Below, piece after piece: positions 460 to 26,259 of a DNA stretch of 40,881 bases. A model generated the notes under the pieces. That model did not search any database. It was not told the DNA's origin and worked only from the letters and a program-made list of their open reading frames with translations. A program made the position numbers and the translations under genes. Numbering within the stretch: the stretch's first letter is position 1; every line of letters begins with the position of its first letter. Origin of the DNA: Phoronis australis (Eukaryota; Animalia; Phoronida); assembly GCA_002633005.1 (NCBI GenBank), contig NMRA01000258.1, forward strand, positions 549,709-590,589, given 5' to 3'.

Positions 460-841
460 TGTGCCGTCGTGCATCCAAGATCACCTGCTGGTGATTTGAT
501 ATTGGTCATCTATTCATTGTGTCTTTTTAGGCTGCGAAAGAAAGTCATTACCTCGCAAATACTAACAATGATGCGTTAGCCGTTGTATTCACTTGGCGCT
601 AACCCATTTGTTCCAACAGGCAAAATTCAACATTCAGTCGATGGATGAAGTTCAGTTGTTTTCTTGAATTTCTATTTCAGTATACAGCTCCGTGGTAACT
701 AAGTGGGGGTGAAGGGTGATCCTGGTTAACACTTGTAAAATCGTCAATTTCATGATTCATGACGTGTCAGCTTTTGGAGCCCCACAGTTACATTTTTCAC
801 ACTCACTTTGACCTTGACAAATCATACCTCTTAAGAATTGA

Positions 842-2036: not shown

Positions 2037-3363
2037 TATGTCAAGAATCATGATTTTTAAATGTCCCGTTAAGTGCCACAAGCAGTAACCGGGACAGTTA
2101 CGATAATTGTAAACTTGTTTTTTTAATAATTTTTGTTTTTTTTTCTTTGTAGGTTCCTTTGGAGGCTACCGTGTGATAATAGTAGATGAAGAGGGGTCGT
2201 ATCAGCATTCTTGCTAATTTTGTAAAATTATCAATTTCATGATTTACAATAACTTTTAAGTTTCACAGATCATGGCACATTGTCATTCTTTCTCTTGTTG
2301 AACGTCAATTCTCTTTCACAAGTGCCACAATATTTTGGCCTATCCTTCACCCCCCTCTATGAACTGAATTCTGACGTTCGTTCCCATTCATGCATCTAAG
2401 ATCACTGTTTACTGACCATGCATCCTGCTTCACATTGCTGCCTGTCATTTACCATCACTCAATAGGATGCTCCCGGATTACCCACAACGCTGCAACATCT
2501 GCCAAGCAGTCTCTAATTTGTATTGATTACATTAATTGAGTTCAACCTTCCAATGACACTTAAAGTTTTACAGAACTCAGCTGTGCTGTGGCTGCAACCC
2601 CCAATGACAGAAAGTTGGAGCGACTTGAGAATTATTTGTGAATACGATATGGTTTCTGACATTTCTAAACCACGGCCAATGTAGGAACGCATTTTCGTAC
2701 CTCGGGGACAAAGGAGATCTCTATCCAGGCCCATCTTATTGACCGCATGCACGTCCTGAGGAGCATCGGTGTATCCTGCCTACAATCAGGTACTTAAGCT
2801 ACATAGTGACTTTGCATATGCACCAAGGAAGGGCACAGGCCTGTCAGTAACCTGCAGTTCAGATGGACATCGAGTATACTTTACACTAGCAATTTTACCT
2901 TCGCTTATAAATACCTAAATTCAGCTAAATGGCAGTGCCCACATTTTCTAAATCTTCACTGTTATAACTCATGTGAGGCTTACCACCCATGTGTCATTTA
3001 CATAAGTCAAGGTTACGTAAAGTTTTTGATGTCAGTGGAACAAGAATCCCGGCACATAAAAGTTTAGCTTCCAAAATGTATGTGTCTTAGCAGTTCATCA
3101 TTTGGCGGTAGCAAAGACCATCGTATCGGTATGCCTTTCCAATTATTTGTGCTGGAAAAGGCACATTAAAGAAGCTATGAAATGGTTATCTAATTTTGTA
3201 TGAAAATCATAGAGTAGTACTTGAGTGCAAGTGTGGTCCAGATATTCCCTTAACGCCCACTTGCTGAGTTTTGAATGTCGCAATTAAGTGCCCTAGCTGT
3301 GCACTAATGTTAATGTGGATGAGTAAAGCAGTTGTAGGTTTGGATCTTTCTGACTATGGCCGC

Positions 3364-3497
3364 CTGTCATTGACCATCAGCCAATCTACTGCATGCATTG
3401 AGGAACATCATTGGATCTATGCTTGCCGTCATCGACTAGTCGCATATCAAGTATATCAAGAAATGGCACCTGGCTGCCATCAACCGTGCATAGTACA
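3364..3497 (+). repeat. Outer diverged inverted-repeat arm (pairs with 22117-22250)
   Basis: 134 bp align without gaps to the reverse complement of 22117-22250 at ~80% identity by eye (ctgtcatYgaccatcagccaa...gtgcaYagtaca). Confidence 0.85.
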
Positions 3498-3715
3498 GAT
3501 GAAGTGAAGTTTAAGGAGATCTTTTACACGTGCAGTTCTTACTCAGAAAGGTTCACAGGCAAGTTCAGCCAAATGCTAACCATCCAAATTTACAAATCTT
3601 TGCATTTAAATGCTCTCACTTTGCCTATTGCCCTCATTTAATTGTTACAATTGCATGAGACTTTCCTAAAAATGTCAGTGTCTAAGTGAGTGCCAGTTTG
3701 CCAAAAAATTTAGCA

Positions 3716-6700
3716 TACATGTATACTGATGCGTTAGTGAGTTTCAAGATCGTGAGCTAAATTATTACGTGTCATTGTTGTATAAAAAGAACTCGAGATG
3801 TTCAGGGATACCAATCCCTAGTTTCAGCCATTCACTCTAATGGAGAATGGGATTGCAGATGGCTCTACCTACCAACAACCTGACGTCCAGCATCAGCGCC
3901 TATGATTGACATGTATTGATGGGCAAGGTAATATGAGTGTGCGTGGGCATGTTTAAGATGAGTGTGACAATGTGTTGAGGAGGGCAACGGCCAATGTAAG
4001 TGTGTGCATAATGATTTTCATGTTCGAAGCATGTCCCGAAAATGATAGGTGCGTCGCAAGCTCCGTTTCCAGAGATAAGAAGGAAATGTGTATTAGGAGA
4101 AACAATGGTCATTTATTATGAGTGATAACGGTACAGAAGTACGAGTGATGAATAATAAGTAAACATAAAATAATAATTTGGAAAGATAAGCAATAAAAAG
4201 CGTAGCACTCAGGTAAGAGGAACCACCATAAAAGGGGCGTGGTAGTGAGTGGGAAAAAATGAAGATAGATTTTTTTCAAGCATAAGAGCTGCTAAAGCAA
4301 GGAATGACAGGAAACATATGTTTACTGAGAACAAAGGTTAACCCTAAGACACGTGATAATCATCAATCAATAGGAGCCAGGAGCAGCTGACCAAGGCACG
4401 TGACAGAAACAAAACAATAGTGAGGCTGGTAATGAAATGTCCTACTACGTCGTGTGAAAAAAGGACCCAACGCAAATCTACTCAAATGATTAGTGGACGA
4501 GTTCGAATGAAAAAAGAGAGTGGTATAAGCAAGACTAGTCCATATTCTCACATAAATATAATTAACGAGTGAAATACCATTTATGTTTGAAGTATGTTCC
4601 AAAAATGATAGGTGCGTCCCAAGCTCCGTTTCCAGAGATAAAAAGGAGAGGCATATAAGATGAACAAAGGCCATTTATTATGAGTGATAAGGGTACAGAA
4701 ATATGAGTGTTATATTTTTTGCATGAGGCTGAGGGTAATTGGAATGTTGAGCAGTAAAGTGTGAATTATGAGGAGAGTCTCTCGCGTGTCCCTGTTTTAG
4801 TAAAAAACCAGATAAACTCCCGTGAAAAGGGTAAAACTTTCCTGTCAAGTTTTTCACAGAAGGATGTCAATCAAGTAAAACTAGTAAAGTCTTCCCCCAT
4901 GTCGAGTTTTCTTCACAGAGTATAAGTTTATTCTAGTAGAGATTATCGCCATTGCTTCTAACTTGAAGAATCAGTTGGGCATTAAATTCAGACGTGCTAA
5001 CTGGGTTTAATCTTGCCTGGTGGGCTGATGACAGTCATTGGTTAAAGAATTTGTAACATGTGACGAATTAATGGTGCAATGGTATGAAAGTGACGAATCT
5101 GTGAAATGCTATCACTTAGTGAAACTGTTGAGTGACAAAGCTAAATGCGAAACATAAATGAACCGAGACCACATGAAAATAAATGAACCAATGAATAAAA
5201 CACGAGTTAAGGACAAAAAACCTACCAAATGGTACAAATCAAATGAAACTATGAAATGTATAAAATTCATAGACTAATGTAATCGGAAACTTAAATGAAT
5301 GCGTAAAATATCACAAGGCCTATAGGGTGTGACGAAGCAAAATAAATTTGAAAAATGAGAAGGTAACACATAAAGACATGTGTATGCTGGTATAAACCAA
5401 TTGAAAAAAGCATGAACCTTCAAAATGTTACATCTAAAAAAACTGGTTGAATGTGACGAATAAAATGGGAGAAGTAATTGAATCCACAGAATGTGATAAT
5501 TTATGAGTGATTGAAATATCAATCAGTGAAATGCGACACAAAGAAACGTGTGGTGGCCCAGATTTAACACAACTGATGAATCCTTAAAATGGTATGGCTA
5601 AATGAAGCCATTAAGTGCAATGAAAGGAAATGTGATGGCAGTCTTCAATTGCCTTACATTGAAGATGATCCACACATCAAGGATCTGCCACCCACTTCCT
5701 AAATGTCTGCTCATGAACGGTGGCGGGTGGATATCAACCACTGCATGCTTTAAGGATTGCCATCTTGTCTCTAAACATTGGTTATCTGCATCTCATTGTG
5801 TTGCATTGGCAATTTGCATTGAGGGATGTCACTTGAAGGAGCAAGAATCAACAGCATCTCCCATCCACCCGATGCTGTACATTGATGCATGCTATCAATC
5901 ATATGTATGTTTACCACTCACACATGTAGGTCAATACTAAACAACATCGTGGATTGCCTTTTTGCAAACCACTTCCAAATTGTTGCCTAACCATCGATTG
6001 TTTGCGTATCGGCTGTCTAACTAACAAGCATCATCCACCGTGGAGATTCGCAACCATCTGCACTGTGCCCACTATTATACAGATGCCTAATATAAACCAC
6101 ATATGTAACAAACAAGACATGAACGCATCAGAGGAGTCCAGGATCAGTGTACGGAAGAGTTATGTATGTGCAACGAGTGAATGAAACTAAAATTTCATGA
6201 ATTCATGAATCTCCAAAATGAGTTGAATGAACAAATCTATGAGCAGTAATCAATAACCATCATTGAGTTGTGGTAATCTGGGGAAACGAGTAGAGTTTAC
6301 AGTTACTTTATGTGACATCAAATGGTGAATCCTTTCGTCAGATACTGTCAAATTACAGAATTCATTGTTATCACTGACAAATAATATTGTGTGTTGCATG
6401 TGTGAGATAAGCAGATTGTGCTTCTTTGTTGAATTGTGCCAGAAAAAATCGTATAACAAGCTGGTGCAACAAAATAGGGACTTTAGCATTACTTGTCAGA
6501 GTGATCTTAATACGTCCAAAGAATATACTGAATTTTGAGCGAAGTAATGCATTACGAACTGCACCAAGTTAATGGAGTCACGTCAAATGGAATAATTGAA
6601 TGAATCTGTAGAATGTCATCAAATGAGCAGAAGAATAAATGAACTATAAAATACTAAACATAAGTCAACTCAAAAAATGTTAATGAATATGCATCTGATC

Positions 6701-9700
6701 GATAAATAAGCATTGATTTCGAGTGGTAAAGTAACCATGAAATGCAGTGAATGAATGGAGTCTTGAAGTACGACAAGTGAATGAAACTGAAATTCCATGA
6801 AATACTGAGTTTTCAAGTGCAGTAAGAAATTGATCCCTGTGTTAAATGTGCCTATCAAAGGATTTATATAATGATGAAATTGGAAGATGAGAATGTTATA
6901 GCTGGAGCCATGAAATGCGATGAATTGAAACCATTAAAATGAGGAATAATTGCTTTAAGCAAACCAAGGAATTCAGGATTCGTTGAAGAGAACATTAATG
7001 CTACAACAATGTTTCCCGAAGTAAAAATCGCTTAAACATATCGCAATCAACAAGCTGGTGTAGCATAATGACAGAACGTATACATTGCGAGGAAGCAAAT
7101 TGGTAAATATCAGGTGAACATAAATATTGCAGTAAACAATGTACCCATGAAATACGAGTTAATAGAAAAGCAGTATGTGAGGTTAACAAAGTCCCAGTGT
7201 GGTACTCGTTCAAGAAACATCACGAATACCAAAAGTAAATGGAGATCATGTGTAAATTCTGAAAAGTGAATGAGTCCATTAAAAAGGCTAAATGTAGCCA
7301 AAGATATGCAGCTTGAGCATATCAAAGGGGTGATTTAACTTGTGTACACCATTGCATATCAGAATGTATGGAAATTTGAATGGTAAAATGTATCATATAT
7401 TGAAGAAATAGTGCATCAAATTAGTGGAGTCCCATGAAGTATCGCAATATCTGGAGAAATGGTGTTATCTCCAAAATATCAGAAATCAACAATAAAATGC
7501 TATAAATCAGTTAACCCTTAAAATGCAAAAACCAAAGACCCTATGAAGTATCATGAGTTAATGTCAGGGTAATCATAGTCCTACAGTGCTGCTAGTCAAT
7601 GGTGTCTCGTATATGCAAAAGGTTAATGGAAATAATATAAGGGAAAACTGACTGTACCCATCAAATGCAAGAAGATATTGAATTCTGGAGTGAACAAAAT
7701 CATGAAAAGTTATGTATTAATAGAGCTGGAATATGTTAACCAGAAAGGAAATGTACAAAGGGTTAGAAAATTGAAATGAAAAATGTATTAAATAAACAGA
7801 GGTGTAAAGATTTGCTAAACAAGTGAAAAAGGAAGGTAGGGGTGGTGAATGAGCAGGAGACAACAAATTCTATAGGTGGCTGACTTTGAATTGAGCCAAA
7901 GGGAACATGTTTATCAAACATGGCTATCAAAACTATAAGATTTCTTTACAACTATTGTATTCTTAAAAGTAACTTGTACCCAGCTTTTGCTAAATCTAAA
8001 GTTCATTCACCATCCTGAGGCAAAGGGCAATGCAGCATTTCTTCTTTTTTAATTCTTATCATTCACTACATGGAGAAGTGACCTACTAGAATTTTCTTGG
8101 GTTTACAATTAATTTATGCTGCACCAAGTGGTGGTTCCTTTTTCACAAATTTTAAAATTATGGAATTCATTGTTGTCACTGACAATTAACGTTGTGTCTC
8201 CAATATGTGAGGAAAACAACTTGTTTTTGTTGAATTGTGCCAAACACCATTGATTGAACAACAAAATGGGTGACTTGATTTGTGTACTGAACTGCTTATA
8301 AGAGTGATTTTAAAACCCCAAAGATTGCAGTGAAATTAGAATAGAGCAATTTATCACAAATTGAACAAATAAGTACATGGAATTAGTGGAGTCCTGAAAA
8401 ATGGGACAATAGAATGAGTCTGTAGAATGTCATTCAAGGAACATCAAAATAAAAGACCGGTAAAATACTAACAATAAGTGAATTCTCGATGTTTGATGGA
8501 TTGAGGATCTTTCATGCAATGAAGTGGTTAGAAAAGCCATGAAATGCATCACGTAAATTTGGTTTTGAAGTACGACAAATAATTGACATTGTGAAATTCA
8601 ATGAATTAATGAATCTTTAAACACAGCAATAAATTAATCCCCGTGTAAACAACAGCTATCAAAGGAATCTTTACATAATGTAATTGGAAACCGCAAATGT
8701 TAGGACTGGAGTATTGAAGTGTGATGAATTGACAAATTATTGAAAGGTGATGAGTAATTTCTCTTGGGAAAACCAATGCATTTTAATTTTAATACTTAAA
8801 AGGATTCACGGAACAGAATAAATTAATGGTTCAGTAATATCATGAATTAATAAGCCCCGAAAATATCACAATAAAAAACTGGTGTACCGTAACGACAGAA
8901 CTCATAAAGTAAATATTTCCATGGAGTCGGAGGGACCAAAAGGCAAAAAAATAAGTGAAGCTATCAAATGCAAAAATACCGTATCCATGAAATATGACTT
9001 ATTTATCAAACGTGATACTAGTTCAAGAGATCATGTTGTCTGGGCAGCACAAAGAAGTGATTTGATTTGTGTACACCATGGATTATCAGAATGCTCTTCA
9101 CACGCCCAAGGAATGTAGAAATACTTGAATGGTAGAAGGCATCAGGCATTGAAGAAAACAATTCATCAAATTTCTGGAGCACTGTGCAATTAAATGCGTT
9201 ATGAAATAAACAGAGAAATAAATAAGCTGTAAAATGTAAAAAAGAAATTAACTCCTGGAAGTTGGCGAATTAAAAAATCCGTAATTCGTATTCTGTCATT
9301 GATAAAGAAAATCAGTGGCTAGTGAATAAAATTGCAAAATTTGTTTGAATTAAGGAATCTTCAAAATATGTTAAAAGAATAAATCAATCAGCAGTAATCT
9401 AATAATCCATGTGTAGAATGCAACTTCAAGGGAATGTATTCATTTATTTATGTAATTGGAAGTTTAGAATGTTATAACTGGAGTCATGAAATGTGGTGAA
9501 TTAACAAACCATGTAAACGTGAAAAATTATTGGTTCTGTGAAAAGCAATGGATTCATGCAACAGAGCAAATTACAGGAAGGTAAAATAATATATGATGAA
9601 ATAATGAATAAAAAAACAAAAATCATAATAAAACGGGTGTAGAGTGATGACAGAACCTGCAAAATAAACAAAGGCATTGATTGCAAAGAAGAAAAATGCT

Positions 9701-10617
9701 AAAAATAAATGAGCCTATAAAACACGAAAACCAATGAGCCCCTGAAGTATTATGAGTTGATGATATGGTTATGAGTCCTACAGTGTTGTTTTTCAAACGT
9801 GTCACGCCAATGCAAATGGTCAATGGAAAAAAGAATAGGGACAACTGATGGAATCCATCAAATGCATTAAAATTATTGAATTCTGAAATTTTTTGGAATC
9901 GATAAGTTCACGAGAATATGTTACAGAGCAATGAAATTAAAATCGAAAGGGTAATAAATAGAGATATGGCAATTTGTTTAACAAGTGAAAAAGAAAGGTA
10001 GGGATGGTGAATTAAAAGGGGACAACAAATTGAATAGCTGGCTGAATTTAATTTCAGCCAAGTGAACATGTTGATCAAACATGGTTACTAAAACCTTAGC
10101 CTTCTTTACTATAGTATTCTTTAAAGTGACATTCGCAGCTCTGGCTAAAACTGAAATTCATTCACCATCCTGAGGCATAAGGGCAATGCAGCATTTTTTC
10201 TTTTTCAATGTTCATCATTGAGCAACAATGTTCTGCTAGCGTTTGGCTGGTTTTACGATTTTTGTGCTGCATCTAGTGGTATTTCCTTTTTCACAAATTG
10301 TAAAATTATGGAATTCCATGCTATCACTGAACAATTAGTGTTGTGTCTGCAAAATGTGAGGAAAGCGACTTATGCTTCTTCATTGAATTGGGCCAAACAC
10401 CATTGTATAACACGCTGAAACAACAAAATGGGCGACACCTTCGCTTATCAGAATGGAGTAGTGTATCATGGAATGAACTAAAGAGTGCCTTGATTGATGA
10501 GTCTTGAGTGCCATTAAATCAATATCAATATAAAAGACCTGTAAAAGACTAGGAATAAGTGAACTCCAGAAATTTGATGCATTGATGATATGTTATGAAT
10601 AGTTCAAGAAATCCCCC
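3716..10617 (+). repeat. Left arm of giant inverted repeat (~6.9 kb)
   Basis: Colinear reverse-complement match to 11848-19998. Mirrored ORF translations confirm it: 10218..10418(+) vs 12062..12262(-), 7110..7325(-) vs 16516..16794(+), 6670..6858(-) vs 16980..17168(+), 5274..5522(-) vs 18283..18567(+), 3900..4112(-) vs 19608..19814(+). Confidence 0.97.
4016..4710 (+). repeat. Further copy of the ~550 bp unit (one full plus one partial) inside the left arm
   Basis: Same marker as 842-2036, at ~4020 and ~4585. Confidence 0.9.
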
Positions 10618-11865
10618 CTTTTTGTTTCCCACCGTTTCTGTTTTCCCCGTCTTTTTTGTGTATCCGCCCTTTTTATTTTTCCCACGCTTTTTGTTTTCCC
10701 GCCCTTTTGTTTTTCCTGCCCTTTGTTTTTCTGCCTTTTTTGTTTTCCCACCTTTTTGTATTCCTCATATTTTGTTTTACTGCCCTTTTTGTTTCCCATC
10801 CTTTTTGCTTTCCCCGTCCTTTTTGTTTTCCCGCCCTTTTTGTTTTCCCGCCCTTTTTGTTTGGCCGCCATTTTTGTTTTCCCGCCTTTTTGTTTTCCTC
10901 CTTTTACTTTGTTTTCCTGCCGTTTTTGTTTGCTCCCCTCTTTATTTCCCGCCCTTTTTGCTTGCTCCCCACTTTGTTTCCTGCCCTTTTTGCTTGCTCC
11001 CCTTTGTTTCCCGCCCATTTTGTTTTCCCGCCTTTTTGTTTTCGCCGTCTTTTTTGTTTTCCCGCCTTTTTTCTTTTCCCGCCTTTTTTCTTTTCCCGCC
11101 CTTTTTGTTGTGCCGCCATTTTTGATTTCCCGCCCTTTTTGGACTCGTCTGATGCGTTCATGTCTCGTTTATTACATGTATGTTTTCCGGCTTTTTTGTT
11201 TTCCCGCCCTTTTTTGACTCCTCTGATGCGTTCATGTCTCGTTTATTACATGTATATTTTCCCGCCCTTTGTGTTTTGCCGCCCTTTTTGTTTCCCACAT
11301 CCTTTTTGTTTTCCCGCCCTTTTTGTTTTGCTGTCTTTTTTGTTTTCCCGCCCTTTTTGTTTTCCCGCCCTTTTTGTTTTCCCGCCCTTTTTGCTTTCTC
11401 CCTTATTTGTTTCCCGCCCTTTTTGTTTTCCCGCCTTTTGCTTTACTGCCCTTTTTGTTTGCCCTCTTTATTTTACCCGCTTTTGGTTTTCCTCATTTTT
11501 TTGTTTTACTGCCCTTTTTGTTTGCCCCCCTTTGTGTTTCCCCGTCTTTTTTGTGTTCCCGCTTTTTGTTTTCCCGTGTTTTTTGAAAAAAAATGGTAAA
11601 ACATTAAAAGGGGGTAAAACAAAAAGGCAGAATAAAAAAGGCGGGAAAACAAAAAGGGCGGGGAAAACAAAAAGCGAGAAAACAATAAAATGCGGGAAAA
11701 ACAAAACAGGCAACTCCAGTTATACATGACAAATATTGCATTTATTTCATGCAGTTTTCTGTACATGTCAAACAATCATTACTGTAACATCTCCATTTAT
11801 TTATCGCATTTCTGGTTTTTCGCATGATATCCATAAACCTTTTGTGAGGGGGATTTCTTGAACTA
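10600..11865. mobile_element. Putative non-autonomous TIR element (18-bp TIR TAGTTCAAGAAATCCCCC) forming the palindrome axis
   Basis: tagttcaagaaatccccc at 10600-10617 and gggggatttcttgaacta at 11848-11865. Similarity of the arm to its paralogous module (~8490-8520) fades by ~10599, so the 18 bp appear to belong to the insert. A TSD cannot be tested because the flanks are inverted copies of each other. Confidence 0.5.
10619..11710. repeat. 17-18 bp minisatellite (TTTTTGTTTTCCCGCCC)n, orientation flipping at ~11583
   Basis: T-rich units from 10619 to 11580, then reverse-complement units (aaaaggcgggaaaacaaaa) at ~11610-11710. This explains all the Phe/Pro- and Lys/Gly-rich ORFs at 10593-11775. 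Confidence 0.95.
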
Positions 11866-14800
11866 TTCATAACATATCATCAATGTAGTTCACTTATTCT
11901 TAGTGTTTTATAGGTCTTTTATATTGATATTGAGTTAATGACAGTACAGACTCATTTAGTTCTTTCATTTCATGCGAGTATATCAATCAAGGCACTCTTT
12001 AGTTCATTCCATGATACACTACTCCATTCTGATAAGCGAAGGTGTCACCCATTTTGTTGTTTCAGCGTGTTATACAATGGTGTTTGGCCCAATTCAATGA
12101 AGAAACACAAGTCGCTTTCCTCACATTTTGCAGACACAACACTAATTGTTCAGTGATAGCATGGAATTCCATAATTTTACAATTTGTGAAAAAGGAAATA
12201 CCACTAGATGCAGCACAAAAATCGTAAAACCAGCCAAACGCTAACAGAACATTGTTGCTCAATGATGAACATTGAAAAAGAAAAAATGCTGCATTGCCCT
12301 TATGCCTCAGGATGGTGAATGAATTTCAGTTTTAGCCAGAGTAAAGAAGGCTAAGGTTTTAGTAACCACGTTTGATCAACATGTTCACTCGGGCTGAATT
12401 TATATACAGCCAGCTATTCAATTTGTTGTCCCCTGTTCATTCACCATCCCTAACTTCCCTTTTCACTTGTTAAACAAATTGTCATATCTCTGTTTATTTT
12501 TGTTAAAAATTCTACCGGTGTTTATTCATTAGTTCTCATGAGCTCGTTGATTCCAGAAATTTTCAGAATTCAATAATTTTAATGCATTTGATGGATTACA
12601 TTACAGGTTTGAAAAACAACACTGTAGCACTCTGATAACTGTCACATCAATTCATAATACTTCAGGGGCCCATTGGTTTATAGGCTCATTTATTTTTAGT
12701 GTTTTGCTTCTTTGCAATCAGCGCCTTTGTTTATTTTGCAGGCTCTGTCATCACCGGTTTTGTTATTTATTTTTTATTTTTTTATTTGTTATTTCATCAT
12801 ATATTATTAGACCTTCCTTTAATTTGCTGTTGCATGAATCCATTGCTTTTCACAGAACCAATTATTTTTCACCTTTACATGGTTTGTTAATTCACCACAT
12901 TTCATGACTCCAGTTATAACAATTTCAACTTCCAATTACATCAATAAATTAATATATTCCCTTGAAGTTGCATTCTGCACATGGATTAATAGATTATTGC
13001 TGATAGATTTATTCTTTTAACATATTTTGAAGATTCATTAATTCAAACAAATTTTGAAATTTCATTGAATGGCCACTGATTTTCTTTATCAATGACGGAA
13101 TACAAATTACGAATTTTTTAATTGGCCAACTTCCAGGAGTTAATTTCTTTTTTACATTTTACAGCTTATGTATTTCTCTGTTTATTTCATAATACATTCA
13201 ATTGCACAGGACTCCATTCAAATATTTCAACATTATTTGGGGGTAGTAGTACCACGTTTGGTAATTAAGTCATATTTCATGGATACGGTGTTTTTGTATT
13301 TGATAGCTTCACATATTTTTCACCTTTTGGTCCCTTAGACTCCATGGAAATATTTACGAGTTTGGGGGCTTATTAATTCATAAGACATTACTGAACCATT
13401 AATTTATTCTGTTCATCACATTTCACGACTCCAAGTCATAACATTTGCGGTTTCCAATTACATTATATAAACATTCCTTTGATAGCTGTGTTTTACACAG
13501 GGATTAATTTATTGCTGTATTTGAAGAATCATTAATTCATTGAATTTCACAATTTCATCTATTTGTTGTTCTTCAAAACCAAATTTATGTGATGCATCTC
13601 ATGGGTTTTTTAACCACTTCATTGCATGAAAGATAATCAATCCATCAAACTTCGAGAATTCAATTAGTGCTAGTATTTTACCGGTTTTTTATTTTGAACT
13701 TCATTGAATGACATTCCAAAGACTCATTCCATTGTCCCATTTTTCAGGACTCCACTAATTCCATGCACTTATTTGTTCAATTTTTGATAAATTACTCGTC
13801 CATTCTATTTTCACTGCAATCTGTGCGGGTATTAAAATCACCATTATAAGCAGTGGGGTACACAAATCAAGTCACCCAATTTGTTGCTCGATCAATGCTG
13901 TTTGTCACAATTCAACAAAAAACAAGTTGCTTTCCTCACATATTGGAGACTTAATGTTAATTGTCAGTGATAACAGTGAATTTCATAATTTTAGAATTTG
14001 TGAAAAAGGAACCACCACTTGTTGCAGCACAAATTAATTGTAAAGCCAAGTAAATTCTAACAGGTCACTTCTCCCTGTAGTGAATGCTGCATTGCCCTTT
14101 GCCTCAGGATGGTGAATGAACTTTAGATTTAGCAAGAGCTGGGTACAAGTTACTTTTAAGAATACAATAGTTGTAAAGAAATCTCATAGTTTTGATAGCA
14201 CCCCTACCTTCCTTTTCTCTTGTTTAGCAAATCTTTACATCTCTGTTTATTTAATACATTTTTCATTTCAATTTTCAAACCCTTTGTACATTTCCTTTCT
14301 GGTTAACATACTCCAGCTCTATTAATGCATAACTGTTTATGAATTTGTTAATTCCAGAATTCAATATCTACTTGCAGCTGATGGGTACAGTCAGTTTTCC
14401 CTGATGTTATATTCATTAACCTTTGCGTATGTGGGACACGATTGACTAGCAGCACTGAAGGACTTTGATTACCCTGACAAAAACTCATGATACTTCATAA
14501 GGCCTATGGTTTTTGCATTTTACAGTTAACTTCTTTGTAGCATTTCATTGTTGATGTGTGATAACTTGGAGATACATCATTTCTCCAAATATTATTGCTA
14601 TATGGGACTCCATTAATTTGATGCACTATTTCTTCCAATATATGATGCATTTTATCATTCAAATTTCCAGTCATTCTGATAACCAATGGTGTACACAAGT
14701 CAAGTCACCCATTTGAGATGCTCAAGCTACATATCTTCGGCTACATTTAGCCTTTTTAATGGGCTTATTCAATTTTCAGAATTTACACATGATCTCCATT

Positions 14801-17800
14801 TACCTTTGGTATTTGTGATGTTTCTTGAAGAGTACCACACTGGGACTTTGTTAACCCCACATACTGCTTTTCTATTAACTCGTATTTCATGGGTCCATTG
14901 TTTACTGCAATATTTAGGTTCACTAATATTTACCAATTTCTTTCCTCGCAATGTATACGTTCTGTCATTATGCTACAGCAGCTTGTTGATTGCGACATGT
15001 TTAAGCGATTTTTAATTTTGGGAACATTGTTGTACCATTAATGTTCTCTTCCAGGAATCCTGAATTCCTTGGTTTGCTTAAAGCACTTATTCATCATTTT
15101 AATGGTTTCAATTCATCGCATTTCATGGCTCCAGGTATAACATTCTCAGCTTTCACTTTCATCATTATAAAAATCCTTTGATATGCACATTTTACACAGG
15201 GATCAATTTGTCCCTGCACTTGAAGATTCATTAATTCATTGAATTTCACAATTTCATCTATTTGTCGTACTTTAAAGTCAAATTGATGTGATGCATTTCA
15301 TGAGTTTTCTAACCACTTCATTGCATGAAAGATCCTCAATCCATCAAACATCGAGAATTCACTTATTGTTAGTATTTTACCGGTCTTTTATTTTGATGTT
15401 CCTTGAATGACATTCTACAGACTCATTATATTGTCCCATTTTTCAGGACTCCACTAATTCCATGTACTTATTTGTTCAATTTGTGATAAATTACTCTATT
15501 CTAATTTCACTGCAATCTTTGGGGGTATTAAAATCACTCTTATAAGCAGTTCGGTAAACAAATCAAGTCACCCATTTTGTTGTTCAATCAATGGTGTTAG
15601 GCACAATTCAACAAAAACAAGTTGTTTTCCTCACATATTGGAGACACAACGTTAATTGTCAGTGACAACAATGAATTCCATAATTTTAAAATTTGTGAAA
15701 AAGGAACCACCACTTGGTGCAGCATAAATTAATTGTAAACCCAAGAAAATTCTAGCAGGTCACTTCTCCATGTAGTGAATGATAAGAATTAAAAAAGAAA
15801 AAATGCTGCATTGCCCTTTGCCTCAGGATGGTGAATGAACTTTAGATTTAGCAAAAGCTGGGTACAAGTTACTTTTAAGAATACAATAGTTGTTAAGAAA
15901 TCTTATAGTTTTGATAGCCATGTTTGATAAACATGTTCCCTTTGGCTCAATTCAAAGTCAGCCACCTATAGAATTTGTTGTCTCCTGCTCATTCACCACC
16001 CCTACCTTCCTTTTTCACTTGTTTAGCAAATCTTTACATCTCTGTTTATTTAATACATTTTTCATTTCAATTTTCTAACCCTTTGTACATTTCCTTTCTG
16101 GTTAACATGTTCCAGCTCTATTAATACATAACTTTTCATGATTTTGTGCACTCCAGAATTCAACATCTTCTTGCATTTGATGGGTACAGTCAGTTTTCCC
16201 TGATATTATTTCCATTAACCTTTTGCATATACGGGACACGATTGACTAGCAGCACTGTAGGACTCTGATTACCCTGACATTAACTCATGATACTTCATAG
16301 GGTCTTTGGTTTTTGCATTTTAAGGGTCAACTGATTTATAGCATTTTATTGTTGATTTCTGATATTTTGGAGATAACACCATTTCTGCATATATTGCGAT
16401 ACTTCATGGGACTCCACTAATTTGATGCACTATTGCTTCAATATATGATGCATTTTACCATTCAAATTTCCATACATTCTGATAAGCAATGGTGTACACA
16501 AGTTAAGTCACCCCTTTGATATGCTCAAGTTGCATATCTTTGGCTACATTTAGCCTTTTTAATGGACTCATTCACATTTCAGAATTTACACATGATCTCC
16601 ATTTACTTTTGGTATTTGTGATGTTTCTTGAACGAGTACCACACTGGGACTTTGTTAACCTCACATACTGCTTTTCTATTAACTCGTATTTCATGGGTAC
16701 ATTGTTTACTGCAATATTTATGTTCACCTGTTATTTACCAATTTGCTTCCTCGCAATGTATACTTTCTGTCATTATGCTACACCAGCTTGTTGATTGCGA
16801 TATGTTTAGGCGATTTTTAATTCGGGAAACATTGTTGTACCATTGTTCTCTTCAACGAATCCTGAATTCCTTGGTTTGCTTAAAGCAATTATTCTTCATT
16901 TTAATGGTTTCAATTCATCGCATTTCATGGCTCCAGCTATAACATTCTCATCTTCCAATTCCATCATTATATAAATCCTTTGATAGGTACATTTAACACA
17001 GGGATCAATTTCTTACTGCACTTGAAAACTCACTATTTCATGGAATTTCAGTTTCATTCACTTGTCGTACTTCAAGACTCCATTCATTCACTGCATTTCA
17101 TGGTTACTTTACCACTTGAAATCAATGCTTCTTTATCGATCAGATGCATATTCATTAACATTTTTTGAGTTGACTTATGTTTAGTATTTTATAGGTCATT
17201 TATTCTTCTGCTCATTTGATGACATTCTACGGATTCATTCAATTATTCCATTTGACGTGACTCCATTAACTTGGTGCAGTTCGTAATGCATTATTTCGCT
17301 CAAAATTCTCTACATTCTTTGGACGTATTAAGATCACTCTGACAAGTAGTACTCAAGTCCCTATTTTGATGCACCAGCTTGTTATACAATTTTTCTGGCA
17401 CAATTCAACCAAGAAGCACAAGCTGCTTATCTCACATGCAACACACAATATTACTTGTCAGTGGCAACAATGAATTCTGTAATTTGACAGAATCTGAAGA
17501 AAAGAGCCTCCATTTGATGTAGCAAAAATAACTGTAAACTCTACTTGTCTCACCAAATTACCACAACTGAATGATGGTTATTGATTTAATACTGCATATA
17601 TATTTGTTAATTCGGCTCATTTTGGAGATTCATGAATCCATGAAATTTTAGTTTTATTTACTCGTTGCACATACATATCACTTCTGAACACCGATCCTGG
17701 ACTCCTCTGATGCGTTCATGTCTCGTTTATTACATGTGTGGTTGTTATTAGGCATCTATGTAATAGCGGGCACAGTGCAGAAGGTTGCAAATCTCCACGT

Positions 17801-19998
17801 TGGATGATCCTTGTTGGTTGGACAGCCGATGCGTAAACAATCGATGGTTAGGCAACAATTTGGAAGTGGATTTGTAGATACAAAAAGGCAATCCACCTTG
17901 TCGTTTAGTATGGACCTACATGTGTGAGTGGTAAACATACATACGATTGATAGCATGCATCAATGTACAGCATTGGGTGGATGGGAGATGCTGTTGATGC
18001 TTGCTCCTTCAAGTGACATTCCTCAATTCAAATTGCCAATGCAACACTATGAGATGGAGACAACCAATGTTCAGAGACAAGATAGCAATCCTTGAAGCAT
18101 GCAGTGGTTGATATCCACCAGCCAGCGTTTATTAGCAAACATTTAGGAAGTGGGAGGCAGATATTTATCCTTAAATTGCGTGGTTGATCTTCAATGTAAG
18201 GCAGTTGATGACTGGCATCAAATTTTCTTTCATTGCTCTAAACGGCTTCATTTAGTCACAACAGTTTAAGGATTCATCAGTTTTGTTTAAGCTAGGCCAC
18301 CACAGGTTTCTTTGTGTCGCCTTTCACCAATTGATATTTCGTTCATTCATAAAATCTCAAATTCTGTGGATTCAGTTAGTTCTTCCATTTTATTCGTCAC
18401 ACTCAACCAGTTTGTTTAGATGTAATATTTTAAGGGTTCATGCTTTTTTCAATTGGTTTATACCAGCATGCACATGTCTTTATGTGTTACCCTCTTATTT
18501 TTCAAATTTATTTTGCTTCATCACTCCCTATAGGCGATATAGACGTGATATTTCACGCATTCATTAAAGTTTCTGATTACATTAGTCCATGAATTTTATT
18601 CATTTCATAGTATCATTTGAATTATACCATTTGGCAGGGTTTTTTGTCCAAAACTCACGTTTAATTGGTTCATTTATTTTCATGTGTTTTCGGTTCATTT
18701 ATGTTTCGTATTTATCTTTGTCACTCAACGGTTTCACTTAGTTATAGCATTTCACAGCTTCCTCACTTTCATACCATTGCACCATTAATTTGTCACATGT
18801 TACAAATTCATTAACCAATGAAAGAATTGCCAGTTAGCATGTCTGAATTTAATGCCCCAGTAATTCTTCAGATTAGGAGCAATGACGACAATCTCTACTC
18901 GAATAATATCCTCTGTGAATAAAACTCAACATTGGGGAAGACTACTCGTTTCACTTAAAACTCATATTTCTGTACCCTTATCACTCATAATAAATTACCT
19001 TTGTTTCTCTTATATACCTGTCCTTTTTATCTGTGGAAATGGAGCTTGGGACGCACCTTTTTATCTCTGGAGACGGAGCTTGGGATGCACCTTTTTATCT
19101 CTGGAAACGGAGCTCTGGGACGCACCTATCATTTTTGGATTATACTTCGAATATAAATGGTATTTCACTCATTAAATATACTTATGTGAGAATACGGACT
19201 CGTCTTGCTTATACCACCATTTTTTCTTCATTCGGACACATCCACTAATCCTTTGAATAGAGTTGCACACGACGCACTAGGACACTTTATTACCAGTCTC
19301 ACTATTGGTTCGTTTCTGTCATTTGCGGTTGTCAGTTGCTCCTGGCTCCTATTGACTGATGATTATCACGTGTCTCAGGCTTAACCTTTGTTCTCAGTAA
19401 TCATGTTTCCTGTCATTCTGGCTTTAGCAGCTCTTACGTTTGAGTAAAATATTTCTTCATTTTTCCCCACTCACTACCACGCTCCTTTTCTGGTGGTTCC
19501 TCTTACCTGAGTGCTACGCTTTTCATTGCTTATCTTTCCAGAGATTATTATTTTATGTTTAATTACTACTTAACACTATATTTCTGTATCGTTATCACGC
19601 ATAATAAATGACCTTTGTTTCTCCTATACACCTTTCCTTCTTCGGAAACGGAGCTTGCGACACACCTATCAGTTTCGGGACATGCTTCGTACATGAAAAT
19701 CATTATGCACACACTTACATTTTCCGTCGCCGTCCTCAGCACATGGTCACACTCATCCTAAACACGCCCATGCACACTCATATTACCTTGCCCATCGATC
19801 CATGTCAATCATAGCCACTGATGCTGGACGTCAGGTTGTTGATGGTAGGTAGAGCCATCTGCAATCTCATTTTCCACTAGAGTGAATGGCTGAAACTAGG
19901 GATTGGTATCCCTGAACACCTTTTTATACAACAATGACATGTAATAAATAAATTTAGCTCACGGTCTTTAAACTCACTAACACATCAGTATACACGTA
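11848..19998 (-). repeat. Right arm of giant inverted repeat (~8.1 kb, with an extra ~1.7 kb tandem module)
   Basis: Reverse complement of 3716-10617. Segments ~13520-15220 and ~15225-17020 both match left-arm ~6830-8620. Confidence 0.97.
18960..19697 (-). repeat. Inverted copy of the ~550 bp unit with a local 34-bp triplication (19022-19126)
   Basis: Reverse complement of 4016-4710. cctttttatctctggaaacggagcttgggacgca recurs at 19022, 19056 and 19090. Confidence 0.9.
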
Positions 19999-20374
19999 GG
20001 TGCATGTCTGCATCTGGCAATCACCTATTAACTACAAGTTACATTACCTATGAGGCTGACTTGCAAGTTAAGTCATGCATTGACGCCTAAACAGAATTTT
20101 TGAGAAATCTGAGATGGATTAAATTTCCTTCTGCCAGTTCCCACATCATTTTTTTCACTCAACCATAGTGCACAACCATCAATGCACAAACAGTGATGCG
20201 GATATTTCTTGATACATGGACGTTAAACATGTGAGCAGATCACGACATATACAGCAGAAGTACTGAGACTGAATCAGCAGGAAGACCTGATCACTTAGAG
20301 CTAATTTGGCCATCTTATTGGTGAATTCTCGATCAATTCATCTGATCTCTTTGCTGTGCATTATGCAATCCCTA

Positions 20375-21905
20375 AATCAACTATGCAGGCACCAAAGAAT
20401 GTCCATACATCAAAGCCTTCCATCTAATCTCCAAATAAAGACTGTTCGCACATCGACACCTGATATCAACTGTTCAAATGTCAACCATTCACACATCGAG
20501 GAACATCCATGCATTGAGGTTCACCATCTAACACCTACATACCGATCGTTCACGTATCAAGGAGCATCCAGGTATCGAGGATTGTCATCTTTTGTCCACA
20601 AACCAACTGTTTGCGCATCAATGGCTGCCACCAACTGTTCGCATACCAATCTTCCAAACACCAAGAAGCATCCTAGCATCAAGGATTGTCACCTGCTGTA
20701 TGCATGTCACCCGTCCACACATAGTGGAACATCCCACATCCAAGATTACCATCAAATGTTCGCATATCGACAGCCCACACACCGTGGAACGTCCATTCAT
20801 TCAAGGATTGGCGACTACTATCCATATGTCAACCTTCCCCATATCGAGAAATGTCAATGCATCGAGGATCGACATCTTCCGTACACATATCAACCACCCT
20901 CACATCAAGAAACGTCCACTCATCAAGGTCCACCATCTACCGCTACAAACCAACTGTTCGCACAACAGTATCTACCATCGGCCATCCGCATAGCAATCTT
21001 CCACACACCATGGAACATTCACACAACTAGAATCGTCAACTACCATTCACCTACCGATCATGTGTCCACGGATGCCTGCCATCCACCGTATGCATATTGA
21101 GTGTCCCCCCACCGGGACAGTCATTATGCATACAGTCCATTGACCATATGCATATTGACTATCCCGGTGGGGGGATAGTCAAGATGCATACGATCAAGGG
21201 CAAGCATCAACGGAAACATGGTCAGCGGGAGGATGGGAGATGAAGATCCCAGATGTGTGAACATTCCATGATGTGAAGAAGATCGAAATGCTAATGGCTG
21301 ATGGCAGACATTGTTGCGTGAATAGATGGTTTGTGGACAGTCGAAGGTCATCCTCAATGAGTGGACGTTTCTCTATGTGTAGATGGTTGACATGTGTACA
21401 GAAGATGATGATCCTCGATACATGGACATTTCTCGATATGTGGATCGTCGACATATAGACAGTAGAGGGCAATCCTCAAATGTATGGAAGTTCCACAATG
21501 AGTGGGTAGCCGATACGCGAACAGTCGATGGTAATCCTGGATATGTGGACATTCCTCTATGTATGGATGGTTGACATGCAAACGGCAGATGACAATCCTT
21601 GATGTGGGAATGCAACTCAATGTGTGGACGATCGATATGTGAACAGCCGATGGAAGACATTGATGCGTGAACAGTCAGCTTGTGAACAGAAGATGCCAAT
21701 CTTCGATATCTGGATGCTCCTGTGATACGTGAATGTTCGATATGCAGACAGTAGATGGCGATCTTCAATGTTTGGACATTCCTCGGAAAGTGGATGGTTG
21801 ATATACGAACAGTTGACCCAAGGCACCAACACACGGACAGTCGATATTTAGAAATTAGACGGCCCTCTTCAATGTCTGGACATTCGCTGGTACGTGGATA
21901 GTTGA
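20375..21905. repeat. ~1.5 kb diverged palindrome made of ~60-bp tandem units, axis ~21140
   Basis: 20375-21132 matches the reverse complement of 21147-21905 at roughly 70-80%. Units such as tgttcgcatatcaaccatccacacatcgaggaacgtccatgcatcaaggattgccatct recur about every 60 bp. Confidence 0.9.
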
Positions 21906-22116
21906 TATGCGGACAGCACAGTACACACCACAGTGATCAACCAGAACGACCTGGAATTCCCCGACATGATGACAAAATTAGCGGTTATGACCTTGAATTC
22001 CTTGCCCATCTGCCAAACTACTTCGGGTGTGTTCATGAACTGCAAAATGGATTTAAATGAAATAGCAAGTTACCGAAAAGTGAACAAAATGTGTATGTTT
22101 TGAAAACTAATTTTTT

Positions 22117-22250
22117 TGTACTGTGCACAGTTGACGGCGGGCAGGTGGCATTCCTTGATGTACTTGAGATTCGAGTAGTTGATGACAGCAAGAGTAGATG
22201 CCACGACGTTCATTAATGCATGCAGTATGTTGGCTGATGGTCGATGACAG
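22117..22250 (-). repeat. Outer diverged inverted-repeat arm (pairs with 3364-3497)
   Basis: Ungapped reverse-complement match to 3364-3497, ~80% by eye. Confidence 0.85.
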
Positions 22251-22382
22251 TATTGCATCCCATCCTAAGAACTTCTCTCTATTCCTGAAATAGAAATGTA
22301 TACCTTAAAGTCATGCCTTAAGTCAGCAATTAAGCAATTTTGGTCAAAGTCTTAATTTTCAAAAAGCCAATGCTCTCAGCCA

Positions 22383-23072
22383 ACAACTGTTACATTTTAT
22401 GTCATTGTTGCATTTTACCTTGGTAGGCCTCTCCTAAAATAAGCATTTTATGTAATTGTTACAGTTTACATGAATGCACATGTGAGAAATGTACCATTGT
22501 TACATTTATATAAGCGCAGTCATGCATTTCATGAGTTTTCTTGGTATTTACCACACGGAGGAAAATGGTTCACACACTTAACGGGCTCTTTCATGGATTG
22601 TTTGAATGAAATTCTGTCAAATAGGCCAGCTCGAATTTATACATGAGCACCTATGTGCCGGGTTTCCATTGTTTTTTAACAGATTCTTAGTAGAGTCAAA
22701 ACTGTACCCCATTCAGTTTCAACTCCTGACGACAGGAGTTTTCAAGGTTAGGTAACAATTATTGTGTTCATGCAATCTTTTGTTGGCCTTCACATGTAAT
22801 AAATTTTGGCTAATGCTTATCGCATTTCTTTGTCAAAAATGACCGCAGCCCGTTCCACGTAAAATTGTTGCGAGTACCCCGGCCGTGTTAGACACCACTT
22901 ATTTTGATTTTGGTCATTTACTTTGATACGATTTTGGTTTCGTAAAGTGTAATAATTACATGTTTCTTTTATGTACATTGCACATAAACTGTAATAATTA
23001 CATAAAATGTAACAACTTTAGGAGAGACCTAGCAATGTAAAATGTTGCAGTTTCGTCAAATGCAACAGTTGT
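22383..23072. mobile_element. Degenerate foldback/MITE-like element with ~125-bp inverted arms
   Basis: 22383-22507 (acaactgttacatttt...taggcctctcctaaa...cattttatgtaattgttacagttta) matches the reverse complement of ~22946-23072 (taaactgtaataattacataaaatg...tttaggagagaccta...aacagttgt). No TSD found. Confidence 0.6.
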
Positions 23073-23159
23073 AACATTTTAAGAAATTGTTACATAATAC
23101 ATCAGAGCCCCATACATCAGTGGTAAAAAATTTCTAATTTGGGAAAGTGTCTTGGAATT

Positions 23160-23885
23160 TCAGGCAATGATATGTACAGCCACTTATTTGTTTAATTTCA
23201 TAAACATCCATCAAGAACTTGGTAGTGAAATAAATTTCTAATTCATTTTAAAGGTGTTATGAATAGAGGTTCTACTTCCAGTTTTCTACAGTATACATGC
23301 TTTTTGGCTGCAAAGAATGATAAGATTCAACAGTTCGTTCACTTGCTTTGACAGTTTTACCAAATATATAAGTTTGAAAATCTTAAGATATATGCACATT
23401 TTTGCATTAATGTAATATTCATTTATTGTTTCCCAAAAAGACTGAACAAAAGTGCAATCCCAAAATAAATGTTCCAAATTTCCAGTTTCATTCCTGTAAA
23501 AGGAACATCGGTCACTTGGAGAAGTACCAATTACCGTGAAAAAGTTATTAGTTACTAAAATTCTGTTTGCAACTCGTTTAACTTTGCGAAAGTCTGGCAG
23601 GCAATGCCATGTTGCATGACGCAAACTTGTGAGTTTTCGTCTAACATTTTTATCCTTTCACAAAAAATATCTCCGAACTCAAACATCTTAAGAACATTAA
23701 ACACAAAATTCCAGGACAATGTATCAAATGCTTTGCCAAAATCCACTATTGTTCCAAGACCCAAAAGTTCTCTTGAGTACGTAATATACAAAATGTCATA
23801 AAGAGTTCAGACAAATGTTTTCACCAATAAATTGACCAGATAAAAGTCCTGTCTGATCTGGGTGAATCAATTTTTCAAGAACTGT
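23160..23885 (-). pseudogene. Decayed, internally deleted 3' part of an L1/Tx1-type LINE ORF2
   Basis: Three frames give early RT motifs VLEKLIHPDQTGLLSGQFIGENI and DFGKAFDTLSWNFVFNVLKMFEFG. These are followed directly by the C-terminal zinc-finger region RILVTN...DRCSFYRNETGNLEHLFWDCTFVQSFW, so the YADD core is missing. Confidence 0.85.
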
Positions 23886-26223: not shown

Positions 26224-26259
26224 TAAAATTATGGAAAAAAAAAAAAAAAAAAAAAGAAC

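What the first reader, a model, noticed from the sequence alone, without database searches (positions are those of the whole stretch)
3364..22250. Giant (16-19 kb) non-coding palindrome / foldback-like structure built from nested repeat modules
Seen: arms of ~6.9 and ~8.1 kb flank a 1.2 kb spacer with no N-gap at the axis, and an older 134-bp outer pair extends the symmetry to ~19 kb. The arms have no credible coding capacity and consist of smaller repeat families. Established: foldback elements (Drosophila FB, sea-urchin TU) have modular inverted arms, usually much shorter, and long palindromes are recombinogenic. Inference: this is either an unusually large foldback-type element or a locally generated palindrome that has persisted long enough to diverge. 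It is the best candidate for an undescribed system in this window.
Basis: partly seen in the sequence, partly recalled or inferred. Interest (0 to 1): 0.85.

Follow-up and report, generated by a model that had tools for sequence, protein, structure and literature searches.

The report
Old mirror duplication with self-copying arms
Two 7-8 kb mirror-image stretches of apparently non-coding animal DNA meet head-on and are both transcribed toward the centre; they are likely an old local duplication whose arms patch each other by gene conversion rather than a jumping element, and a smaller palindrome at one edge likely makes a long hairpin RNA.

Summary
The palindrome is in the sequence. Arms 3681-10617 and 11714-20030 are 93% alike: 90.6% baseline, with two tracts at 97.6% and 98.6%. 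The 'spacer' is mostly a 17-bp array that itself flips at about 11586, with no N. In public DNA of the same species label, arm depth is 1.6-1.8 times that of both flanks, and blocks specific to each arm lie at flank depth. So these are two paralogous arms, not two alleles, and not a dispersed foldback family (true repeats here reach 10-50 times; no TSD). Letters missing from the other animals are shared by both arms at 9 of 12 sites inside the tracts and 0 of 35 outside. That is likely arm-to-arm conversion, which probably also added a 1.8-kb unit to the right arm. Stranded RNA runs toward the centre on both arms, with little read-through. A 2,010-bp block between the right arm and the outer 134-bp pair is absent in other haplotypes. 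It holds a 1.7-kb palindrome whose transcribed strand is G·U-rich and indel-poor, a likely hairpin RNA. No listed read spans the axis, so adjacency rests on the assembly. The scan noted near-perfect giant palindromes in two other genomes, none on this DNA.

The parts
3364..3497 (+). Outer (older) left segment of the symmetry, 82% to 22117-22250
3681..10617 (+). Left arm, transcribed on + toward the axis
4017..4712 (+). Dispersed repeat module inside the arm (mirror 18956-19697; further copies at 842-2038); bins up to about 15 times the flank median
4712..4872 (+). 161-bp block present only in the left arm; at flank-level depth at site 4795
6295..10617 (+). Diverged tandem units of about 1.75-2.1 kb (A from 6295, B/C from 8101, partial D from 10261), 66-75% alike
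6490..8540 (+). High-identity tract (97.6% to about 17350-15300), likely conversion donor
10060..10496 (+). Second high-identity tract (98.6% to about 12390-11983)
10612..11585 (+). Degenerate 17-bp tandem array, left side of the axis
11140..11253 (+). Two captured 38-46 bp pieces of arm sequence inside the array, in right-arm orientation (38 of 38 identical to the right arm near 17700)
11587..11713 (-). Same array inverted; the true axis is at about 11586
11714..11847 (-). 134 bp of arm-like sequence kept only on the right; likely deleted from the left arm at a run of C
11848..20030 (-). Right arm, transcribed on - toward the axis
15291..17088 (-). Extra ~1.8-kb unit in the right arm, closer to the left arm (95-99%) than to its tandem neighbour (81-86%)
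20031..22040 (.). 2,010-bp block absent from a joined form seen at flank-level depth in DNA and in RNA reads of two samples; no TSD
20300..21982 (-). 1.7-kb palindrome of 61/348-bp subrepeats; candidate hairpin RNA (G·U-rich on the transcribed strand, few indels)
22117..22250 (-). Outer (older) right segment

Best explanation
This is a pair of 7-8 kb mirror-image arms meeting at an inverted 17-bp array, transcribed toward the centre from both sides, and it is likely an old, locally formed inverted duplication whose arms are patched from each other by gene conversion rather than a mobile element. Inferred history: a replication fork or broken end folded back inside the 17-bp array and copied a transcribed non-coding stretch in reverse. 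Asymmetric deletions at the centre (134 bp plus array on the left, most of the array on the right) removed the perfect hairpin and stabilised it. The arms drifted to about 90%. Later repair events copied 0.4-2.1 kb tracts from one arm to the other, and one of them re-annealed one tandem unit out of register and added about 1.8 kb to the right arm. The outer 134-bp pair is likely the oldest stratum. Shown: the anatomy, the patchy identity, two arm types at flank depth, inward RNA on both sides. Inferred: the fold-back origin, conversion as the cause of the tracts, the direction of the unit change, and physical adjacency in other animals.
For: Two copies per flank copy. Median summed contig depth of 14 arm bins against 9 flank bins is 1159/721 in X1 and 189/103 in X2. 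Single contigs in flanks on both sides lie at 250-385 (X1) and 40-62 (X2, X4); single arm contigs reach 107-154 (X2, X4). A left-only block (site 4795: 317/80/65) and a right-only block (site 11973: 306/36) each lie at about flank depth. Listed flank contigs of these other animals differ from the window by about 0.5-6%, against about 9.4% between arms outside the tracts.

Conversion. The best 2000-column window has 41 mismatches against a minimum of 102 in 1000 permutations; the second tract has 5 in 400 against a minimum of 15. Letters absent or minor in the other animals are shared by both arms at 9 of 12 tract sites and 0 of 35 outside (Fisher p 2e-7). Left 6750-8550 matches right 13592-15275 at 91.2%, the baseline, so the extra unit reads as copied from the left arm. 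Arm sequence is captured inside the central array.

Transcription. In arm bins free of the dispersed module, inward-strand depth is 2-29 and opposite-strand depth 0-1.9, against about 0.4-1.6 on either strand in unique bins outside. Side-specific reads lie in the left flank and at 4795, and at 11973 and the 20030/22041 joint. A>G exceeds T>C on the inward strand (44/700 vs 15/447, p 0.03).
Against: No listed contig or read bridges the axis (most pieces are not shown), so orientation and adjacency rest on this one assembly, though the axis has no N. The DNA runs are one sample, and summed contig depth is not a copy number; I chose 23 of 60 bins for the ratio, which is 1.6-1.8 rather than 2. Flank depth is a multiple (about 6-8) of the lowest contig class. 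I read this as a pooled sample, but the whole ~30-kb region could instead be a 3-4 locus segmental duplication. Tract divergence (2.4%) equals allelic divergence, so the tract could be the other haplotype of the left arm placed in the right arm by the assembler. The 47 sites come from the 80 best-supported rows of about 4,400, a selected set, and one site (7538) is polymorphic. Loss of a unit from the left arm also fits. Most RNA reads are only 85-95% alike, and RNA-only splice joints may be among the rows not shown.
Confidence: 0.7

Rival explanations
1. An unusually large non-autonomous foldback (Mutator- or P-type) transposon with modular terminal inverted repeats.
For: The architecture resembles Tetris scaled up: outer domain, internal tandem units whose number differs between arms, non-coding middle (PMC4079207, passages). 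Tetris had only three complete copies, so low copy number alone does not exclude it.
Against: No direct repeat longer than 6 bp within 25 bp of any candidate end, which is chance level (158 of 300 random pairs reach 6 or more). Homology fades outward (91%, then unalignable, then 82%). Arm depth is only about twice the flanks', while true repeats in the window reach 10-50 times. The short-repeat array is central, not subterminal. Arms are about five times the longest TIRs in the two papers read (1,735 and about 1,260 bp). No transposase-like Pfam match in the scanned frames.
Confidence: 0.07
2. Assembly artefact: two haplotypes, or two separate paralogous loci, were joined head-to-head at the 17-bp array.
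For: No bridging piece was listed at the axis, and the axis lies in a repeat array. Palindromes in the first Adineta vaga assembly proved to be haplotype-scaffolding artefacts (PMC8494291, passages).
Against: Arm depth exceeds flank depth and arm-specific blocks each lie at flank depth, which argues against alleles. The assembly marks other gaps with N but has none here. The two sides of the axis are only about 71% alike, unlike a read-level fold-back chimera. The right arm's outer junction is confirmed in other animals.
Confidence: 0.11
3. The palindrome is kept by selection as a regulatory or small-RNA structure, like the non-coding palindrome of the mammalian IgH 3' regulatory region or a small-RNA precursor locus. 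This is compatible with the best explanation as to origin.
For: Strand-specific RNA well above background on both arms in two samples (the left arm was laid with one RNA run). Persistence to about 10% divergence with repeated homogenisation. A hairpin-RNA-like element at the edge, distantly related to arm segment 5654-6085 (E about 1e-5).
Against: The big arms show no wobble bias (107 G·T vs 104 A·C, p 0.89) and have ordinary indel rates. There is little read-through across the axis, so no giant RNA stem is evident. No second species was found or tested.
Confidence: 0.15
4. The arms are ~8-kb terminal inverted repeats of two copies of a giant element joined end to end, with the flanks as element interior.
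For: The 2:1 arm-to-flank depth and inward RNA fitted this after the first lay.
Against: Unique-looking contigs as far out as 23.0-23.5, 27.0-27.3 and 30.9 kb have the same depth as the left flank, and RNA falls to background beyond about 22.8 kb, so the flank is baseline.
Confidence: 0.04

Closest known systems
Large conversion-maintained palindromes of mammalian X and Y chromosomes (10.1101/800185, first of two parts of the text read)
   Same: Multi-kb inverted arms with arm-to-arm conversion.
   Different: Those have arms over 10 kb, over 99% identity and testis genes. Here the arms are 7-8 kb, about 91% with discrete 97-99% tracts, no gene was found, there is almost no unique spacer, and conversion seems to have changed tandem-unit number.
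Non-coding palindrome of the IgH 3' regulatory region around hs1.2 (review PMC9936319, passages)
   Same: Large inverted duplication of regulatory DNA whose symmetry outlasts sequence conservation.
   Different: It is centred on an enhancer and conserved across mammals. Here the centre is an inverted 17-bp array, and neither conservation nor function was tested.
Foldback transposons Tetris and Galileo (PMC4079207, PMC3573991, passages)
   Same: Modular inverted arms with internal tandem repeats of unequal number and a non-coding middle.
   Different: Those have TIRs up to 1.7 kb, TSDs of 7-10 bp and dispersed copies; none of these is found here.
Inverted duplications from fold-back replication (ODIRA model, PMC10766186, abstract only)
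   Same: A palindromic junction that is secondarily rearranged at its centre.
   Different: Described for recent human copy-number variants; here old, diverged and apparently shared by other animals.
Drosophila hairpin-RNA (hpRNA) loci (PMC10317233, passages), for the 20300-21982 element
   Same: A one-strand transcript with a long inverted repeat, young and variable in copy.
   Different: Defined by Dcr-2-dependent ~21-nt siRNAs, which were not testable here. The stem here is about 830 bp at 76% identity, and no target gene was found.
Gene-bearing palindromes in the springtail Folsomia candida (PMC5490193, passages)
   Same: Invertebrate palindromes formed by inverted duplication.
   Different: Those are collinear gene blocks for which the authors found no concerted evolution; here non-coding with conversion-like tracts.

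Membership tests
Foldback transposon (FB/Tetris/Galileo-like) | Long inverted arms with internal tandem repeats around a non-coding middle | tested here: met
Foldback transposon (FB/Tetris/Galileo-like) | Target-site duplication of 7-10 bp at sharp termini | tested here: not met
   no direct repeat over 6 bp at 4 candidate end pairs, including the joined form; chance level
Foldback transposon (FB/Tetris/Galileo-like) | Dispersed copies at other genomic sites | tested here: not met
   arm depth 1.6-1.8 times the flanks at 85% likeness; one DNA sample, no whole genome held, older copies under 85% not seen
Foldback transposon (FB/Tetris/Galileo-like) | A related transposase in the genome | not testable with these tools
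   no genome held; none in the scanned frames
Conversion-maintained genomic palindrome | Two paralogous arms in inverted orientation on one molecule | tested here: inconclusive
   two arm types at flank depth; gap-free in the assembly; no bridging read listed
Conversion-maintained genomic palindrome | Lineage-specific letters shared by both arms (arm-to-arm conversion) | tested here: met
   9 of 12 tract sites vs 0 of 35 outside; patchiness test; a phasing error is not excluded
Conversion-maintained genomic palindrome | Over 99% arm identity, over 10 kb, gene-bearing (mammalian sex-chromosome type) | tested here: not met
   92.9% overall, 7-8 kb, no gene found
Conversion-maintained genomic palindrome | Orthologous palindrome in related species | not testable with these tools
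   all DNA holders listed were one organism and one sample
Hairpin-RNA (hpRNA) locus, for 20300-21982 | One-strand transcript through both arms of a long inverted repeat | tested here: met
   minus-strand depth 12-23 vs 0.4-0.9 opposite in three bins, two RNA samples; the transcribed copy may lie at another locus
Hairpin-RNA (hpRNA) locus, for 20300-21982 | Stem kept by selection (wobble-biased changes, few indels) | tested here: met
   91 G·U vs 31 A·C on the minus strand (p 5e-8; p 2e-5 against strand-biased rates measured in the arms); 6 indels per 201 substitutions vs 45 per 410 (p 0.001). That this is an hpRNA hallmark is recalled; 'wobble' does not occur in PMC10317233
Hairpin-RNA (hpRNA) locus, for 20300-21982 | Dicer-dependent ~21-nt siRNAs and a complementary target | not testable with these tools
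   no small-RNA run was listed; the 269-aa frame has no protein homolog at E 0.001
Haplotype-join assembly artefact | Arms together at single-copy depth and at allelic divergence | tested here: not met

The most novel reading that the evidence does not exclude
The locus is an endogenous RNAi module in a non-insect invertebrate. A mobile or polymorphic, G·U-rich, A-to-I-edited ~830-bp hairpin-RNA element sits at the start of one of two convergently transcribed, conversion-patched palindrome arms that carry its older single-stranded relative, so the hairpin could make siRNAs against related transcripts while the palindrome acts as a self-renewing template.
Probability: 0.2. Interest if true: 0.75.

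Novelty: new variant of a known kind. Interest (0 to 1): 0.45.

Why it matters
Arm-to-arm conversion is documented mostly in near-identical, gene-bearing palindromes of sex chromosomes. A gene-free, 10%-diverged, nearly spacerless palindrome with dated conversion tracts, one of which seems to change tandem-unit number, would be a compact natural record of how such structures persist and of how far conversion still works at 90% identity. The nested 1.7-kb palindrome is a directly testable candidate for a long hairpin-RNA locus outside insects. The finding does not support a new mobile element.

Tried and rejected
No whole genome is held, so no genome-wide search could be run.

Coding reading. 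Pfam on 141 stop-free frames found only the LINE reverse transcriptase above its cut-off, plus sub-threshold zf-RVT, Snf7 and repeat-driven hits. Codon-periodicity tests gave p 0.006 and 0.011 in 2 of 12 testable comparisons, uncorrected, and nothing for arm against arm; I treat these as weak. The protein search with the 269-aa frame found nothing. Rfam found 0 matches at gathering score in the window.

Giant-TIR idea: rejected. A giant RNA stem from the big arms: rejected (no wobble bias, little opposite-strand RNA). The A>G excess on the left stretch is slight (219 vs 186 expected, p 0.01). The idea that the outer pair is just a fragment of the 61-bp family has only weak support (E 0.16). 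The sequence between the outer pair and the arms does not align above chance (p 0.22). The Helitron reading of the 2,010-bp block (it sits between A and T) was dropped because its ends do not fit the recalled TC...CTRR rule.

No RNA holder was listed by the index, which is no evidence either way; the raw RNA runs were laid instead. Earlier-finding look-ups by sequence found nothing. Eight paper searches listed no title or abstract describing a like structure in a marine invertebrate; the library lacks most subscription journals. No supplements were read.
Full report
Observation. The inverted repeat is present as described. Self-BLAST and global alignment give a left arm from about 3681 to 10617 and a right arm from 11848 (11714 with the right-only piece) to 20030, with 450 mismatches in 6352 columns, 92.9%. 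There is no N between 1 and 25551. The outer pair 3364-3497/22117-22250 is 82% alike without gaps. The interval between the arms is a degenerate 17-bp array (10612-11585) that turns round at about 11586 and continues inverted to 11713, followed by 134 bp of arm-like sequence that the left arm lacks. So the palindrome is almost spacerless and its centre is asymmetric. The host is an animal-type genome: a LINE reverse transcriptase lies at 23799-25550 (-) and a sub-threshold Snf7 match with exon-like borders at 33618-33743 (+).

What the arms contain. From 6295 inward each arm carries diverged tandem units of about 1.75-2.1 kb, 66-75% alike: two and a part on the left, three and a part on the right. 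One module (4017-4712) is a dispersed repeat that also lies at 842-2038. Segment 5654-6085 is a distant relative of the small palindrome at 20300-21982 (E about 1e-5). No coding signal holds up. The longest stop-free stretch is 118 codons. None of 102 frames from the left flank and arm reaches a Pfam cut-off (right-arm frames below 19938 were not scanned). Indels between arms are mostly not multiples of three. Codon periodicity is absent arm against arm and weak in 2 of 12 testable comparisons. Rfam gives nothing.

Is it an artefact, and is it mobile? Four DNA runs of one sample hold the stretch, and three raw RNA runs share its species label. I laid three of the DNA runs and two of the RNA runs in two calls at 85% likeness. 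Many window letters are absent from them, so they are likely other individuals. Single contigs in the left flank and in unique-looking DNA at 23.0-23.5 and 27.0-27.3 kb have depth 250-385 in X1 and 40-62 in X2 (X4: 61 in the left flank); a joint at 30.9 kb has 258 and 36. Median summed depth of 14 arm bins over 9 flank bins is 1.6 (X1) and 1.8 (X2). I left out 37 of 60 bins: dispersed repeats, multi-unit stretches, boundaries, the LINE, the gap and the three block bins counted apart. True repeats in the window reach 10-50 times the flanks. A left-only block (site 4795) and a right-only block (site 11973) each lie at about flank depth. Listed flank contigs differ from the window by about 0.5-6%, the arms by 9.4% outside the tracts. 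Together this indicates two paralogous arms per copy of the region. It argues against a head-to-head join of two alleles and against a dispersed family. No TSD exists at any candidate end beyond chance. Limits: summed contig depth is not a copy number. The lowest contig class is about a sixth of flank depth, which I read as a pooled sample but which would also fit a 3-4 locus duplication of the whole region. No listed piece bridges the axis, so adjacency rests on the assembly.

Arm-to-arm copying. Identity is patchy: 90.6% outside the main tract, 97.6% over 6451-8550 and 98.6% over 10050-10496, both far beyond permutation. The right arm's extra unit is 95-99% like the left arm but 81-86% like its tandem neighbour, and left 6750-8550 matches right 13592-15275 at 91.2%, the baseline. 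The simplest reading is that a repair event copied about 2.1 kb from the left arm and re-annealed one unit out of register, a net gain of about 1.8 kb (inference); loss of a unit on the left needs the unit divergence to equal the arm divergence by coincidence. At 47 arm sites with a partner column, taken from the 80 best-supported rows of about 4,400, letters missing from (or minor in) the other animals are shared by both arms at 9 of 12 sites inside the tracts and 0 of 35 outside (p 2e-7). Two 38-46 bp pieces of arm sequence sit inside the central array in right-arm orientation. Against this reading, tract divergence equals allelic divergence, so a phasing error could mimic the large tract. 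The switch between unit types at a few shared bases is unlike an assembler's jump (inference), and single contigs at 3-4 times flank depth show extra near-identical unit copies in the other animals too.

Transcription. RNA is strongly stranded: plus strand over the left flank and arm, minus strand over the right arm, both toward the axis and declining toward it, with opposite-strand depth 0-1.9 in bins free of the dispersed module. The strand convention agrees with the LINE's sense strand. Reads on one arm can come from the other, but side-specific reads exist for both: left flank and site 4795; site 11973 and the outer joint. No splice joint appears among the rows shown, but most rows are hidden. 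Polarised substitutions show A>G above T>C on the inward strand (p 0.03), as long-term germline transcription would give (recalled). The big arms have no wobble bias (107 vs 104), so there is no sign of a giant RNA stem.

The block at the right edge. A joint from 20030 to 22041, skipping 2,010 bp, stands at flank depth in DNA (259.5 and 39.5) and in 4 and 2 RNA reads. In that form the outer 134-bp pair lies 76 bp beyond the right arm and 183 bp beyond the left, so it is plausibly an older stratum, though the intervening bases do not align above chance. The block itself is at 2.1-2.6 times the flank median, so copies likely exist elsewhere; whether it is an insertion in this haplotype or a deletion in others is open. 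It holds a palindrome (20300-21982) of 61/348-bp subrepeats, 76% alike over 830 columns. Only its minus strand is transcribed (12-23 vs 0.4-0.9). On that strand the transition mismatches are 91 G·U against 31 A·C (p 5e-8; p 2e-5 against strand-biased rates measured in the arms), indels are 3-4 times rarer per substitution than in the big arms (p 0.001), and the predicted fold is -1067 vs -904 kcal/mol for the other strand. Over 11450-31449 the RNA shows 477 and 478 T>C places against about 301 expected from the other classes, an A-to-I-like excess on minus-strand RNA that I could not localise; the LINE and other repeats there could contribute. Its 269-aa frame has no protein homolog. This is a likely hairpin-RNA element; siRNA production is untested.

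Mechanism. Most likely (0.7): a fold-back inside the 17-bp array produced an inverted duplication of a transcribed non-coding stretch; central deletions stabilised it; the arms diverged and have been patched by occasional conversion. The fold-back origin follows the ODIRA idea of palindromic junctions that rearrange secondarily (PMC10766186, abstract only) and is inferred, not shown.

Comparison. It works like the conversion-maintained palindromes of mammalian sex chromosomes (10.1101/800185, first part read) but is smaller, far more diverged and gene-free. The IgH 3' regulatory palindrome is the nearest non-coding analogue (PMC9936319, passages). It resembles Tetris and Galileo in layout but fails on TSD, termini and dispersal (passages). 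Adineta vaga is the cautionary artefact case (passages). Eight literature searches listed nothing like it in a marine invertebrate, within the limits of that library; no supplements were read. The scan's own notes hold two near-perfect giant palindromes in other genomes and nothing on this DNA.

Verdict. A real, locus-bound, diverged palindrome with likely arm-to-arm conversion and convergent transcription: a new variant of a known kind, not a new mobile system. The nested hairpin-RNA candidate is the most testable lead. Interest 0.45.

Noticed in passing
window 20300-21982: Candidate hairpin-RNA element: one-strand transcription, G·U-biased stem, suppressed indels, inside a block missing from other haplotypes.
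   Followed up: partly
window 33618-33743 (+): Exon-like stretch with AG/GT borders matching the C-terminal part of Snf7/CHMP4 (Pfam E 0.0012, below cut-off); other exons were not located.
   Followed up: no
window 23289-25550 (-), with fragments to about 28070: LINE with reverse transcriptase and zf-RVT, broken by the N gap; a joint 23883 to 26303 in the other animals skips most of it.
   Followed up: partly
window 28489-29868: High-copy element with about 160-bp inverted ends made of 21-bp repeats, transcribed on both strands; structurally a better foldback/MITE candidate than the giant palindrome.
   Followed up: no
window 27350-28120: Very high-copy repeat with strongly one-sided RNA and an A-rich tail in loose ends, SINE-like.
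   Followed up: no
window 22381-23074: Old palindrome with about 130-bp arms, 75% alike, near where minus-strand RNA of the right side begins.
   Followed up: partly
window 1-462 and 842-2038: 78-bp tandem array (93% alike) running off the window, and two further copies of the ~560-bp module also found in the arms.
   Followed up: no
window 38236-38450: Self-inverted array of 15-16 bp palindromic units.
   Followed up: no
window 10612-11713: The 17-bp unit contains a TTTTCCCGC motif resembling an E2F site (recalled); 23 of 23 plus-strand motif hits in the window lie in the left array and 3 of 6 minus-strand hits in the inverted part.
   Followed up: no
window 2735-3005 vs 3381-3650: Very old direct repeat in the left flank (E 1e-7), overlapping the outer pair.
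   Followed up: no
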